From the NCBI RefSeq assembly GCF_009914755.1, contig NC_060929.1: a DNA stretch of 64,000 nucleotides. One strand, written 5' to 3'. A program made the position numbers and the translations under genes. The stretch comes from the human T2T-CHM13v2.0 reference genome, Homo sapiens. How positions within the stretch are numbered: the stretch's first letter is position 1; each line of letters begins with the position of its first letter. Positions 3,871 through 40,892 of the stretch are shown piece by piece. The notes under the pieces were generated by a model that saw only the letters and a list, made by a program, of their open reading frames with translations, had not been told where the DNA came from and made no database searches.

Positions 3871-4299
<429 letters not shown>

Positions 4300-5069
4300 T
4301 GATGGGCACTTAGATTGGTTCCATATTTTTGCAATTGTGAATTGTGCTACTATAAACATGCATGTGCATGTGTCTTTTTCATATAACGGCTTATTTTCCT
4401 TTGGATAGATACTTTGCAGTGGGATTAAATAGTAGTTCTACTTTTAGCTCTTTAAGGAATCTCCACACTGTTTCCACAGTTGTACTAATTTACATTCCCA
4501 TCAGCAGTGTAAAAGTGTTCCCATTTTATCTTATCCATGCCAAAATTTTTTTTATGGTAATTCTTGCAGTAGTAAGGTGGTATCTCATTTTGGTTTTAAT
4601 TTGCATTTCCTTGATAATTGCATGTGATGTTGGGCATTTTCTTGTACGTTTCTGGGATGTCTGTATAGCTTCCTACAGACAATCTCCCTCCCCTGGTTAA
4701 CTGCACCCACTGCAGACCACTCTCACCACCCACCTCTCTGTACTTGGTATTTCATTGGGTCAGTCTCCACCGCTCCTTAGATGCAAGTCTTAGCTTCCCT
4801 CAACTATTTTCACAAGAAATCTCTTTACATCAACCTAAGCAAGCGTTTTGAGAAGTTTTAAAAAACGTACGGATGATGTGATATGTTACCAGCACAGGAC
4901 ACACGGTTTGGTCTCTTGTTTTCTCTCTAACACACCCCTACCCCTATTCATTTTTTTCTCCTTCCTCCTCTTGTCACTGTATCCACTCTAAGGCCCCTAC
5001 ATCCTTTTTCTTCTCCACAGTCAAAATTATCAATACAGTTCTTAACCAATGTTTGTCTCTCCATACAAG

Positions 5070-36581: not shown

Positions 36582-37513
36582 TGTGTCTAGAATTTATTCC
36601 TTCCGGTGGGTTCTTCGTCTTGCTAACTTCAAGAATGAAGCTTCGGAACCTCGAGGTCAGTGTCACAGCTCTTAAAGATGGTGTGTCCAGAGTTTATTCC
36701 TTCAGGTGTTCAGATGTGTCCAGAGTTTCTTCCCTCTGGTGCGTTTGTGGTCTTGCTGACTTCAGGAGTGAAGCTGCAGACCTTCTCAGTGAGTGTTACA
36801 GCTCTTAAAAGTGGTGCACCCAAAGTTGTTTGTTCCTCCCAGTGGGTTCGTGGTCTCGCTAACTTCAGGAATGAAGCTGCAGATCCTTGTGGTGAGTGTT
36901 ACAGCTCATAAAGGTAATGCGGCCCCAAAGGGTGAGCAGCAGCAAGATTTATTGTGAAGAGTGAAAGAACAAAGCTTCCACAGCCTGGAAGGGGACCCGA
37001 GTGGGTTGACACTGCTGGCTGGGGTGGCCAGCTTTTATTCCCTTATTTGTCCCTGCCTACCTCCTGCTAATTAGTCCATTTTACAGAGCACTGATTGGTC
37101 TATTTTGCAGAGTGCTGACTGGTCCATTTTACAGAACGCTGATTGGTCCATTTTGCAGAGTGCTGATTGGTCCATTTTACAGAGTGCTGTTTGGTGCATT
37201 TACAATCCTTTAGCTGGACCCAGAGCGCTGATTGGTGTGTTTTTACAGAGTGCTGACTGGTGCACTTACAATCCTTTAGCTAGACACAGAATGCTGATTG
37301 GTGCATTTTTAGAGTGCTGATTGGTGCATTTATAATCATTTAGCTAGACACAGAGTGCTGATTGGTGTGTTTTCACAGAGTGCTGATTGGTGCATTTACA
37401 ATCCTTTAGCTAGACACAGAGCACTGATTGGTGTGTTTACAATCCTCTAGCTAGACAGAAAAGTTCTCCAAGACCCCACTCGACCCAGGAAGTCCAGCTG
37501 GCTTCACCTCTCA
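36582..37513 (-). mobile_element. LTR12-family (ERV9) solo LTR
   Basis: TG...CA termini; 4-bp TSD gtaa (36578-36581, 37514-37517); tandem gctgattgg repeats; acagctcttaaag U5 repeats. Confidence 0.93.
37085..37455 (-). promoter_or_regulatory. LTR12 U3 CCAAT (NF-Y) repeat array
   Basis: About nine intact gattgg (CCAATC) motifs in ~23-41-bp repeats; TATA-like aataaaag on the minus strand near 37032-37039. Confidence 0.7.
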
Positions 37514-37649
37514 GTAACACGTTTTAGAAAAAGAAAAAAATTTTAGGTAGCCTCAAATACCACTCCACTGGGTTAGACGGACTTTTTCTATTTTATGTCT
37601 GCTCATCTTAGACATTTAAAATTTAAAATTTAACAGTGTTTTCCTATGA

Positions 37650-39739
37650 CATGAAAATCCTGTTCAAAACCAAATTTTACCCTTGTGTTAGTTTGTTAAT
37701 ATTAACCCCAATTTGTTTAAATGAAACATTATAGATCATACCGTTTTATCTTAACCAATTTGACCATGAAGTGAAATCTTTACAAACCTTTTATAACCCT
37801 TTTATTAAAGGGCAGATTAGTGTCTTAAGATCTCCTTGCTATGCTTTTATTTCAATTCTCAATTTATGAAAAGACCATATAGATACTATGGGAGAAGATG
37901 GTGTAGTGCTTCTACCATGCGCTTCATTGCAAGACAATCCAAAGCCAATTGGCTTATTTTGTAATCAGCTCATCCCTGCCTTTGAGCAGGATTTTCATGT
38001 CATAGTATAGGCTAATGAAAGGTTTTTGCCTTTTGAGTCATCATTTTGGCAAAGTAATTTATGGCAATCTGGAAATTGTCTTTCCTGATGCTTGGCTTTT
38101 TGGATGGTTCAGAGGGCCCCTGAAACATTCAGAAAAGAGGTAAACATGATTATTTGACATGTTTAGTCACATAAGATTGCCAAAATGATGTCTAAGTTAT
38201 ATTTTGGTGAATAATACTAATATATGTTCAAAAATTGAATGGGATTTCTAAAATTCTAATGTCTAAGTATATGCTATCAATCATAATTAAGGGTAAAGTT
38301 ATTGTAAGCCACAGAGATAAACTTCTTTGTCAGTCATGTTTTTAACTGTAACTATCCTGGAAATGTTGCCATTTGCAGACAATTATTGTCTTGCTATGTT
38401 ACTTCTCAAAGGATGGTTTATCATCAAGCTATATTAAGGACTTTAACAGGTGTTTTCAAATGCAGGTTTTTAATAGCTTTGAAGATTGTAACATTGGAAT
38501 AGAAAAAGAACGCAGGGGACTCCTAAAAAACTGACATGTTCACAAATACCAAGCAAAACAAAAGTGAACTAAGTGGACTGCACTCAGAAAGTTTAAGCAA
38601 CCTTTTTAACTTTTGCTTGGAATATTGCCAATCCTTGTTTTGTTTTTCAGAGTGAAGGAAACTTATTTTAAGCTATTTATGGCCTTTAATAATTAAGTAA
38701 GGTATACTACTGTGAACAAAATTTGGAGCATGTTCATTTTTCTCCACCTGGCTCCTCTAGAATTTGGAGAGTATCTGAGTCAAGCTTGACATGCAGAGCC
38801 AATAAAGCCCCTTTATTGGGAGAACTGGCCTCATACATTGTCCACACAGTCCCTGCACAGGGTTCCTAACCTGTAACCAGTAAAGAATGTCACTTTCTAA
38901 CAGGTCTGGAAGTTCCGAGTTTATCTTGGGACCTCGAGAGGAGAGGATCACCCAACTCACAGAAGCAATCAAACTCCAAATGGCGCTGCAGACTGAACCA
39001 CACATGCACATGCCATTCTTCCAAGGACCCTTAAGTTGACCCTAGGAGGATCCCTAGCTGCGGTTCCTCATTCAATGCCCCTTTTCAGCAGGAAGTAGTC
39101 AGAAAGAGTCATTGCCCAATACCCCCTAACAGCAGTTAGTGTGACATCTCCACAGTGGAGAATGTTGAAGGAGTTATTAAGAAATTATTTTAGGCAGACA
39201 GAGAGGAAAAGGGGCCGTTGGGAAGTTTTCATTTTTAGAGCTGCTGCAGAAGACTTTCTTATAAAGCCCTGGCATGCAAATGCAGGGCATTAGAAACTGG
39301 ATCCACATAGTGATTCCCGTTGTCTTCTTGCCCTTGCCCCACATGTTCCTGGCAACATGGTTGCCCCCACATAGCCCCTTGTGTGTGGAACATCATGGCG
39401 CCCTGCATTTGCATATTAAAATGCTAGGGTGAGAGGGCCAGCTTTTCCTGCTATGTGAATGACATGCCTAGTAAAACCAATCCCCTAAGTCCTGTGTAAA
39501 TCAGACACTGCCTCCTCCAGCCTTTGTATATATACCTGGCTGGTATCCATGGCAGGTGGGGTTCCCTCTCTCCACTTTGGAGAACCCCCTCCCTTTGTCT
39601 CTGTACAGGGGAGCTTCTTCCTTCTCCTTTTCTTCTTGCCCCTTCTAGAATATTAAACTCTCCTGTCCTAAAAACCAAAAAAAAATAAAAAAAAAAAACA
39701 AAAACGAAAGAAAACAAAACAAACAAAAAACCACCAAAA
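37650..39739 (+). mobile_element. L1-retrotransposed ERV1 (MER4-group) transcript: inverted internal segment (37650-~37978), sense internal segment, U3-R LTR, poly(A)
   Basis: TSD aacagtgttttcct(a/g)tga (37632-37649, 39740-39757); LTR from 39163 ends ~20 nt after attaaa in an A-rich tail; env-end EAIKLQM and a PPT-like tract precede the LTR. Confidence 0.85.
39163..39676 (+). mobile_element. MER4-group LTR (MER50/MER84-like), U3-R only
   Basis: tgttgaaggagttattaagaaattattttaggcag...ccctgcatttgcatattaaaa...tattaaactc; no U5 before poly(A). Confidence 0.8.
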
Positions 39740-40892
39740 AACAGTGTTTTCCTGTGATAACTTCATTATATTTAATAATAACACTCTAACACTGTTTCAC
39801 ACTTGAAAGCTCTATATAATGCATTTTGGACTTAAGAGACTCTTAAAACTAAAAATATATTGCATGAGTAAATAATAAAATACAAAACAAATCTACTAAC
39901 ATACACTTCTCTGTTTGATGTCATACCCATTAACAACTAATAACTTTCCAATGAAGAAACGCACTTTTTAGTGGTATATGACAAAGACAGCCCATTTTAA
40001 AATGCCATTCAATATGTACTCAGTACCAAATCAAAAATGAAGGACTTCAATTTCACGGCTGTCCATTTCCCATATTCTATTATGTTCTTGATTATTTTAA
40101 AAAGAACGGTTTGTTTTTCTCAGTCTAAAAATACTACATTTACTTTGAACTCTTACTGTTTTAGAAAAACAGACAAAAGAGATAACTGGGCTTTGTTTAT
40201 AAGAGTACTTTCCAGGTAAATGCACTACCCACCAATTTGTAAAAGGTAATTATCTTCTAAGCTGTTTCTCTCACACTTTTTAGTATACAAAGCAACTTTT
40301 CTGTGTAGCATCAGGAAAACATGAGACACATGCATGAAAAACAGTAGATCCCCACATGGTAGGATGCACATAAATAGAATCAGACAAAGGAAAATGAGGG
40401 AAGGGGCACATTTTGTCCTGAGTACCCACTGCTTCCTGCTTTGTAAGCTTCTTGTCTAGGTCAGTTGAAGCTCCAGTCATCACAGACTTTTCCTTGGAGC
40501 ATCCTGACCAAGACAATTATCACAGGCAGTGCCTCCTTCTCCTAGTAAGCCTGCCATTTGCTCACTCCTTCCCTCCTTCACCCATCCGCTATACTCAGGT
40601 CTTCTTTATGGCTCTTCTCTCAGCTAACTTCCAGAATAAATTACACTGGGACAGAGTTTTTCATAAGAAACCATTTGAGACTGACGAGAAAGGCCTTTTA
40701 TAAATATCACTTGATTGAGTGCCTTGGAGAGGCAATGCTTTAATGTTGGAATGTTAAGCTTCATCAGGAGGAAGTAAGAGAGATGACTTTTAAAACACAG
40801 GGTTTCCTGATTTCTCTGCTCAAATGATATAGGTAACTATCACATCAAGCTGATCAATTCCAATGATATGAATCTCCCAGGCAGTTTGCATT

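What the first reader, a model, noticed from the sequence alone, without database searches (positions are those of the whole stretch)
37632..39757. Endogenous retroviral RNA integrated by L1 machinery (ERV processed pseudogene) with a twin-priming 5' inversion
Seen in the sequence: an 18-bp TSD (37632-37649 / 39740-39757, one mismatch) at a ttt|aaca site; an LTR that stops ~20 nt after ATTAAA (39652) and runs into a ~60-nt A-rich tail; no 5' LTR. The start of the insert (ctatgacatgaaaatcctgttcaaa, 37644-37668) is the reverse complement of 37981-38005 (tttgagcaggattttcatgtcatag, one mismatch), so the first ~330 bp are inverted with a ~25-bp overlap. The left TSD end ctatga overlaps the inverted segment, and the TSD mismatch falls in this overlap. 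Established: retroviral integrase gives 4-6-bp TSDs and complete LTRs, whereas long TSD, poly(A) and 5' inversion are hallmarks of L1 TPRT with twin priming. Inference: a non-coding MER4-group ERV RNA was mobilised by L1 ORF2p in the germline or early embryo. This is documented for HERV-W but, to my knowledge, rarely described for this family.
Basis: partly seen in the sequence, partly recalled or inferred. Interest (0 to 1): 0.85.

Follow-up and report, generated by a model that had tools for sequence, protein, structure and literature searches.

The report
L1-made copy of spliced ERV RNA
This 2.1-kb stretch is an old, dead copy of a spliced, non-coding endogenous-retrovirus RNA that the LINE-1 machinery pasted into the genome with its front end flipped, and many sister copies of the same retrovirus family were made the same way.

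Summary
Window 37632-39757 is an insert bracketed by a 14-18-bp target-site duplication. Its LTR stops 19 nt after ATTAAA and runs into a 63-nt A-rich tail. It has no U5 and no 5' LTR.

- **Inversion.** In 37 of 39 other genomic copies, the first ~335 bp lie in the opposite orientation and colinear with the rest. Only the window copy is inverted, and the 25-mer is single-copy in the four copies read. This is the anatomy of twin priming.
- **Splicing (new).** The source RNA was doubly spliced. Two introns present in 8 of 8 fuller copies (about 130 bp and about 1 kb, GT...AG) are missing exactly at 38776|38777 and 38962|38963.
- **Family pattern (new).** The event is not isolated. All 26 internal-bearing family elements examined start at R and/or end at R plus poly(A). 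Several are alternatively spliced isoforms. Solo LTRs of the same family keep U5 and have 4-bp duplications.
- **Family traits.** The primer-binding site matches tRNA-Gly. The interior has no gag/pol hit and only an env-TM relic. The name "MER4 group" could not be tested.

The mechanism is known (HERV-W processed pseudogenes, twin priming). The mildly novel part is a second HERV family mobilised this way.

The parts
37632..37649 (+). Left target-site duplication. It is 14 bp exact (AACAGTGTTTTCCT), or 18 bp with one mismatch. The flank/TSD boundary reads TTT|AACA.
   Evidence: (D10)
37645..37978 (-). Inverted 5' segment. It is antisense copy of the ERV internal region that lies directly upstream of the direct part in the source RNA. 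Its first bases overlap the TSD end.
   Evidence: minus-strand hits for query 1-329 in 37 of 39 other loci; 8 of 8 fuller copies..
37644..37668 (-). Inverted copy of the duplicated 25-mer, copied by both cDNAs. It keeps the A seen in three of the four copies read.
   Evidence: (I1)
37979..37980 (.). Inversion junction. 0-2 nt are of uncertain assignment between the end of the inverted piece (37978) and the start of the direct piece (37977-37981).
37981..38776 (+). Direct internal segment ('exon A'). It begins with the direct copy of the 25-mer (37981-38005). It contains an unused splice acceptor at 38651|38652 that a sibling retrocopy used.
38776..38777 (+). Exon-exon junction 1. A 128-138-bp intron (..CTATCT|GTGAGT...TTTAAG|GAATCAAGC in parents) is missing.
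   Evidence: 8 of 8 parents carry it. L066 lacks it at the same point.
38777..38962 (+). Internal segment ('exon B').
38962..38963 (+). Exon-exon junction 2. An intron of 723-3369 bp (mostly ~1.04 kb), reading ..CTCACAG|GTATTTGAGG...CCTAG|AAGCAATC in parents, is missing. That intron holds the env-TM relic.
   Evidence: The acceptor was also used in L029, L031, L067, L068 and L070.
38963..39162 (+). 3'-most internal segment, up to the purine-rich tract before the LTR.
39163..39557 (+). LTR U3. It starts TGTTGAAGG. TATATATA lies at 39527-39534.
   Evidence: solo LTR hits start at this base..
39558..39676 (+). LTR R. Its start is defined by the first base of 18 sibling retrocopies. ATTAAA lies at 39652-39657. 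R ends ..CCTAAAAACC where the siblings also end. U5 is absent.
39677..39739 (+). Decayed poly(A) tail, 63 nt with 51 A.
39740..39757 (+). Right target-site duplication.

Best explanation
A polyadenylated, doubly spliced, non-coding transcript of a gamma-like (class I) endogenous retrovirus was reverse-transcribed and inserted by the LINE-1 machinery through target-primed reverse transcription, in the germline or early embryo.

Step 1: the bottom strand was nicked at TTT|AACA, and the first cDNA was primed on the poly(A) tail added at the end of R.

Step 2: the top strand was nicked 14-18 nt downstream. Its 3' end (..TTTTCCTGTGA) annealed to a complementary internal site of the same RNA (UCAUAGUAAA). 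It primed a second cDNA running a further ~335 nt towards the RNA 5' end. This is twin priming.

Step 3: the first cDNA overran the internal priming site by ~25 nt, and the two cDNA ends were joined. The result is the order TSD, inverted 335 bp, direct 1.7 kb, A tail, TSD.

The copy has no promoter at its 5' end and no coding capacity, so it is an inert pseudogene. Its age is roughly 20-35 million years.

Shown here: the anatomy, the orientation relative to the family, the loss of U5, the intron loss and the sibling copies. Inferred: the enzyme (L1 ORF2p), the order of events and the cell type.
For: - **TSD.** 17 of 18 (or 14 of 14), exactly bracketing the insert, 0 expected by chance.
- **LTR end.** The LTR ends 19 nt after ATTAAA and is followed by 63 nt with 51 A. 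18 of 18 solo-type LTRs of the family continue there into a shared U5 ending ..TATCA.
- **Contrast with integrase products.** Solo LTRs have 4-bp duplications, exact in 6 of 18 and 3 of 4 bases in 5 more.
- **Inversion.** In 37 of 39 other loci the homolog of 37650-37978 lies on the opposite strand, directly abutting the homolog of 37980-38777. The other 2 have no listed partner and 0 share the window's arrangement. Sequence confirmed this in 8 of 8 fuller copies.
- **25-mer.** The four parents read carry it once.
- **Internal priming site.** The target 3' end can pair with the RNA at 9 of 10 positions, including one G.U (my reading of the printed sequences).
- **Splicing.** Two stretches with canonical GT...AG ends are present in 8 of 8 fuller copies and absent in the window at 38776|38777 and 38962|38963. 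Independent retrocopies use the same sites: L066 for intron 1, and L029, L031, L067, L068 and L070 for the second acceptor.
- **Sibling ends.** 18 of 18 5' ends start at R with unrelated DNA upstream. 18 of 18 3' ends stop at R plus an A-rich tail.
- **Sibling TSDs.** Long duplications are seen in L051 (15 of 16), L067 (14 of 16) and L055 (10 exact).
- **Literature on twin priming.** 5' inversion was found in 13% (3 of 23) of processed pseudogenes. The two cDNAs overlapped in 42% of germline L1 inversions (PMC12016303, passages read).
- **Tree.** The tree of 20 copies is star-like, as expected for dead-on-arrival retrocopies.
Against: - The nick site TTT|AACA is one base off the TT|AAAA consensus.
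- The 25-nt overlap is longer than the upper quartile (17 bp) reported for L1 inversions (PMC12016303).
- No orthologous empty site could be inspected.
- No source provirus (U3 at the 5' end next to internal sequence) was found among the copies sampled.
- The samples are the best-scoring 40 candidates of each search, not a census.
- The TSD mismatch has two equally good readings. One is a later substitution. The other is a 14-bp TSD followed by 4 nt copied from the RNA.
Confidence: 0.93

Rival explanations
1. An ordinary integrase-made provirus that later lost its 5' LTR, its interior and U5 by deletions. The A-rich run and the 18-bp repeat would be coincidental.
For: Solo LTRs of the same family with 4-bp duplications show that the family did integrate as proviruses.
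Against: The LTR stops at the same base as 18 of 18 sibling 3' ends, each followed by an A-rich tail. The 18-mer pair has 0 chance expectation. The two internal gaps fall exactly on GT...AG boundaries.
Confidence: 0.01
2. L1-mediated retrocopy as above, but the inversion arose after insertion, by a later rearrangement such as replication-based template switching, rather than by twin priming.
For: The inverted and direct 25-mers differ at one base. No ortholog series was available to time the inversion.
Against: The left inversion breakpoint coincides with the TSD boundary. The inverted piece is exactly the RNA stretch adjoining the direct piece, and it overlaps that piece by 25 nt. The target end is complementary to the RNA at that point. 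A later inversion would have to hit the insert's 5' end to the base and create the duplication. The single difference is a change in the direct copy away from the A that three of the four copies read carry, as expected from later decay.
Confidence: 0.04
3. The retrocopied RNA was a host transcript (lncRNA or read-through) that merely ended in a solo LTR, not a transcript of the ERV itself.
For: The window copy lacks the R-U5-PBS 5' end, so its own start site cannot be seen. It is non-coding: 0 Pfam hits for the 12 tested of the 31 listed ORFs.
Against: The whole insert from 37645 to 39676 is colinear, after undoing the inversion and the splices, with the interior-plus-LTR of 8 of 8 fuller family copies. 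Those copies start at R-U5-PBS. No non-family sequence lies inside the insert.
Confidence: 0.02

Closest known systems
HERV-W (HERV17/LTR17) processed pseudogenes made by LINE-1
   Same: The anatomy is the same: R-U5...U3-R followed by poly(A), long TSDs, a TT/AAAA-like site and frequent 5' truncation. Some copies lack an intron (the pre-gag region). Sources: PMC5537654 and PMC5016936 (passages) and PMC6995185 (passages).
   Different: This is a different family. The PBS matches tRNA-Gly, not Trp. The interior has no gag/pol hits. At least four splice patterns were captured. Among the copies sampled, 0 were proviral, against about one third for HERV-W. This particular copy adds a 5' inversion. 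My term search of two HERV-W papers found no mention of 'inversion', nor of 'inverted' or 'twin priming'.
Twin-priming 5' inversions of L1 insertions and processed pseudogenes (Ostertag & Kazazian 2001, seen only as a reference; data from PMC12016303)
   Same: The inverted 5' piece and direct 3' piece come from adjoining parts of one RNA. They sit inside one TSD pair, and the two cDNAs overlap.
   Different: The template is an ERV transcript. The overlap (25 nt) is above the reported upper quartile of 17 bp.
Mouse VL30 elements
   Same: Both are LTR elements without functional coding capacity whose PBS is complementary to tRNA-Gly (PMC9450689, passages).
   Different: VL30 spreads by packaging into MLV particles and keeps two LTRs. 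The copies here were spread by the L1 route. No sequence relation was tested.

Membership tests
L1-mediated processed pseudogene (retrocopy) | 3' end at the RNA's polyadenylation site, followed by a poly(A) tail | tested here: met
   The LTR ends 19 nt after ATTAAA, followed by 63 nt with 51 A. 18 of 18 siblings end at the same point.
L1-mediated processed pseudogene (retrocopy) | Target-site duplication of about 7-20 bp flanking the whole insert | tested here: met
   14 exact or 17 of 18, with 0 expected by chance.
L1-mediated processed pseudogene (retrocopy) | Insertion at an L1 endonuclease-type site (TT|AAAA) | tested here: inconclusive
   The site is TTT|AACA, one base off the consensus. 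The consensus itself is taken from PMC5537654.
L1-mediated processed pseudogene (retrocopy) | Loss of introns relative to the source | tested here: met
   Two GT...AG intervals present in 8 of 8 fuller copies are absent here.
L1-mediated processed pseudogene (retrocopy) | Empty orthologous or pre-integration site with one TSD copy | not testable with these tools
   No other primate genome is held. The tool states the genome has no relatives here.
Twin-priming 5' inversion | 5' part inverted relative to the source, 3' part direct, both inside one TSD pair | tested here: met
   37 of 39 loci and 8 of 8 fuller copies.
Twin-priming 5' inversion | The inverted and direct parts adjoin, or slightly overlap or gap, in the source RNA | tested here: met
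   25-nt overlap. The parents carry the 25-mer once.
Twin-priming 5' inversion | Complementarity between the target 3' end and the internal priming site | tested here: met
   9 of 10 positions can pair, including one G.U, read from the printed sequences.
HERV-W group | LTR17/HERV17 sequence and a tRNA-Trp primer-binding site | tested here: not met
   The PBS core is the reverse complement of the 3' end of tRNA-Gly genes. That HERV-W uses tRNA-Trp is recalled. No LTR17 sequence was available for comparison.
MER4 group (Repbase/Dfam ERV1) | Alignment to MER4-type LTR and MER4-int consensus sequences | not testable with these tools
   No repeat library is held. Only class-level support is available: the env-TM relic hits TLV_coat and, among solved structures, syncytin-2.
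Integrase-made provirus or solo LTR | Complete U3-R-U5 LTR(s) and a 4-6-bp duplication | tested here: not met
   U5 is absent and there is no 5' LTR. The TSD is 14-18 bp, whereas the family's solo LTRs show 4 bp.

The most novel reading that the evidence does not exclude
This family has a tRNA-Gly PBS and a ~6-kb interior with no gag/pol hit and only an env-TM relic. It may be a second human ERV group whose internal-region copies are mostly or wholly LINE-1-made processed pseudogenes. They would derive from one or a few long-lived source proviruses and include at least four alternatively spliced RNA isoforms preserved as 'fossil cDNAs'. That would contradict the published statement that HERV-W is the sole HERV group mobilised by L1. 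It would also give a DNA record of the splicing pattern of an extinct retrovirus-like RNA.
Probability: 0.35. Interest if true: 0.6.

Novelty: new member of a known kind. Interest (0 to 1): 0.45.

Why it matters
For this locus alone, not much: it is an inert pseudogene made by two well-described processes.

The wider point is that the HERV literature I could read treats L1 mobilisation as a peculiarity of HERV-W. Large HERV catalogues do not separate proviruses from processed pseudogenes (PMC4724089). A second family dominated by retrocopies would change three things:

- Copy numbers, ages taken from LTR pairs and 'provirus' counts for that family would need re-reading.
- It would show that L1 capture of ERV RNA was not a one-off.
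- It would preserve the family's splice donors and acceptors as a ready-made map.

Tried and rejected
- **Naming the family.** No Dfam or Repbase library is available. Paper searches for MER4 with processed pseudogenes gave only incidental co-occurrences (listings only, plus passages of PMC5753468). 'MER4 group' therefore stays untested.
- **Pavlicek et al. 2002 (PMC155283).** Not held. What I say of it is recalled or taken from PMC5016936.
- **Whole-frame translation of a full copy for Pfam.** I scanned stop-free pieces instead, so short or frameshifted gag/pol relics could have been missed. The pieces were 37 of the 48 of at least 50 aa listed for L055 and L051, and 53 of 28-49 aa from L055.
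- **Search for a source provirus.** None was seen among the sampled copies, but each genome search scored only 40 of 479-2756 candidates. Nine hits that begin inside R were not fetched. L054, a tenth such hit, was read.
- **TSDs of siblings.** Clear in L051, L067 and L055, probable by eye in L024, and not clear in L029, L031, L068 and L070.
- **Chance explanations.** Chance as the origin of the TSD or the 25-mer is rejected.
- **Hairpin in the family.** The idea that the family itself carries the inverted repeat is rejected.
Full report
**1. The observation**

Reading 37400-40000 and the repeat scan confirm every item.
- An 18-bp direct repeat lies at 37632-37649 and 39740-39757, with 17 of 18 bases matching.
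- A 25-nt inverted repeat lies at 37644-37668 and 37981-38005, with 24 of 25 matching.
- ATTAAA lies at 39652-39657.
- An A-rich run lies at 39677-39739, 63 nt with 51 A.
- Each repeat has exactly two matches in the 64-kb window at up to 2 or 3 mismatches, with 0 expected in 100 shuffles.

**2. What the insert is made of**

A search of the window's own genome with 37650-39676 found 39 other loci, among 40 scored of 2756 candidates.
- In 37 of them, query 1-329 matches on the strand opposite to query ~328-1128. It lies directly upstream of that part in its sense, with a ~23-nt overlap.
- Two loci have no listed partner, and none has the window's arrangement.
- Eight fuller copies (L051-L058) show the same by direct alignment, 8 of 8.
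- The four parent copies read carry the 25-mer once, inside a continuous stretch.

So the window copy is the odd one out. Its first ~335 bp are flipped, and 25 nt at the flip point are present twice.

**3. The LTR**

Solo-type LTR hits begin at window 39163. At the 3' side, 18 of 18 solo-type LTRs (L032-L034, L036-L050) continue past the window's last LTR base. They run into a shared ~85-nt stretch, which in 17 of them could be followed to its end at ..TATCA. In L042 an Alu interrupts it soon after its start. The window lacks this U5.

Solo LTRs have 4-bp duplications. They are exact in 6 of 18, match at 3 of 4 bases in 5 more, and are unclear in the rest. That is the integrase signature, and it contrasts with the 14-18 bp here.

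No other family sequence lies in the window. Only Alu cross-hits from Alus inside the reference copy were found.

**4.

All 8 fuller copies carry extra DNA at two points of the window copy: 128-138 bp at 38776|38777, and 723-3369 bp (mostly ~1.04 kb) at 38962|38963.
- The first interval has canonical splice ends in 7 of 8 copies. The second has both ends canonical in 6 of 8. L057 differs at both ends of the second interval, and in L051 the acceptor reads CCTCA rather than CCTAG.
- The first interval reads ..CTATCT|GTGAGTAC...CCCTTTAAG|GAATCAAGC in most copies.
- The second reads ..CTCACAG|GTATTTGAGG...TTCTCGCCTAG|AAGCAATC.
- The window reads TATCT|GAGTCAAGC and CTCACAG|AAGCAATC.

The second intron contains the only protein relic of the family, the C-terminal part of a gamma-type env TM.
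- Pfam TLV_coat: 2e-10 in L055 and 2e-5 in L051.
- Closest solved structure: syncytin-2, 6.5e-10.

The window insert itself has no Pfam hit in the 12 ORFs tested of the 31 listed.

**5. The siblings**

- **5' ends.** Every copy with internal sequence whose 5' end I could read starts at the same G-run. That run corresponds to window ~39558, which is 24-31 nt after TATATATA. Unrelated DNA lies upstream. The counts are L051, L055, L024, L029 and L031, L059-L065, 7 of 7, L066-L070 and L054. That makes 18 of 18.
- **3' ends.** Every 3' end read stops at ..TTAAAAC(C) followed by an A-rich tail. The counts are 11 of 11, L053-L056 and L067, L068 and L070. That makes 18 of 18.
- **Total.** These ends belong to 26 distinct elements. 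None shows U3 at the 5' end or U5 at the 3' end next to internal sequence.
- **TSDs.** Long TSDs are clear in L051 (15 of 16), L067 (14 of 16) and L055 (10 exact). They are unclear in four others.

After U5 comes a PBS (TGGTGCATTGGCCAGGAA in L051). The reverse complement of its core is the 3' end of tRNA-Gly genes. About 45 nt further on lies a strong donor, CAGACTG|GTGAGT.

Retrocopies record this donor joined to three different acceptors:
- window 38652 (L024, L066);
- window ~38905 (L069);
- window 38963 (L029, L031, L067, L068, L070).

L066 also lacks intron 1 at the window's junction. In one search, 7 of 40 hits end exactly at the leader donor.

No gag or pol domain was found. The pieces scanned were 37 of the 48 of at least 50 aa listed for L055 and L051, and 53 pieces of 28-49 aa from L055.

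**6. Mechanism**

The anatomy is that of LINE-1 target-primed reverse transcription with twin priming.
- The target's top-strand 3' end (..TTTTCCTGTGA) can pair with the RNA at UCAUAGUAAA in 9 of 10 positions, including one G.U. This is exactly where the inverted cDNA starts.
- The TSD 'mismatch' has two readings I cannot separate. It may be a later G-to-A change in an 18-bp TSD. Or the TSD may be a perfect 14 bp, with the next four bases (ATGA) copied from the RNA and resembling the downstream flank GTGA by chance.
- The single difference between the two 25-mers is in the direct copy. The inverted copy keeps the A that three of the four copies read carry, so it is later decay.
- Published long-read data give 5' inversions in 18.4% of germline L1 insertions and 3 of 23 processed pseudogenes. 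They give cDNA overlap in 42% of germline inversions, median 12 bp, quartiles 4-17 (PMC12016303, passages). The 25-nt overlap here is on the long side.

**7. Age**

A tree of 20 copies over 810 columns is star-like: 12 of 17 inner forks are unresolved. The window's end branch is 0.047, against a median of 0.053. With primate neutral rates of 0.13-0.22% per million years (recalled, not from a call), this is about 20-35 million years. That is an upper bound, because the branch includes change in the source.

**8. Comparison with print**

HERV-W processed pseudogenes have the same hallmarks (PMC5537654, PMC5016936; passages). A minority of them lack a spliced-out pre-gag intron (PMC6995185). [quoted passage not shown] Five searches found no paper in the held library that reports processed pseudogenes for another HERV family. 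The library lacks most subscription journals and all repeat-database notes, so this is not proof of absence.

The non-coding interior plus a tRNA-Gly PBS recalls mouse VL30 (PMC9450689). That is an analogy only.

**9. Verdict**

It is strengthened by the intron loss and the sibling copies. The mechanism is known, so the locus is a new member of a known kind. The family-wide pattern is the part worth a specialist's look.

Noticed in passing
L022-L031, L035, L051-L070 (26 elements on many chromosomes): Every internal-bearing copy of this ERV family that was examined has processed-pseudogene ends: it starts at R and/or ends at R plus an A-tail. None has a proviral end. The tree of 20 copies is star-like.
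   Followed up: partly
L024:1091-2257; L029:952-2240; L031:1286-2219; L066; L067; L068; L069; L070: Retrocopies of alternatively spliced RNAs. The leader donor, ~45 nt after the PBS, is joined to acceptors equivalent to window 38652, ~38905 or 38963. Several are only ~0.95 kb long (R-U5-leader|3' end-U3-R-An).
   Followed up: partly
L051:531-548 and equivalents; L071, L072, L075: The family's primer-binding site is complementary to the 3' end of tRNA-Gly genes. ARAGORN calls tRNA-Gly (CCC) at the loci that carry the 15-mer. Together with the interior without gag/pol hits, this recalls mouse VL30.
   Followed up: yes
window 37311-37441 (inside the masked stretch 37108-37548): Two 65-66-bp tandem units (92% alike), with further 23-nt sub-repeats, lie just upstream of the insertion site. 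They belong to a different repeat. It was not identified here. By recall it resembles the repeated U3 units of LTR12.
   Followed up: no
L029:1046-1375; L070:620-930; L051:2915-3167 and 4079-4381: Secondary insertions inside sibling copies. L029 has an Alu within U5. L070 has a ~310-bp piece with its own A-tail inside U3. L051 has two Alus inside its interior.
   Followed up: no
L058:3850-4135: One copy (C23) has ~140 bp of LTR start joined directly to mid-internal sequence. This may be a rearranged or recombinant element. It was not resolved.
   Followed up: no
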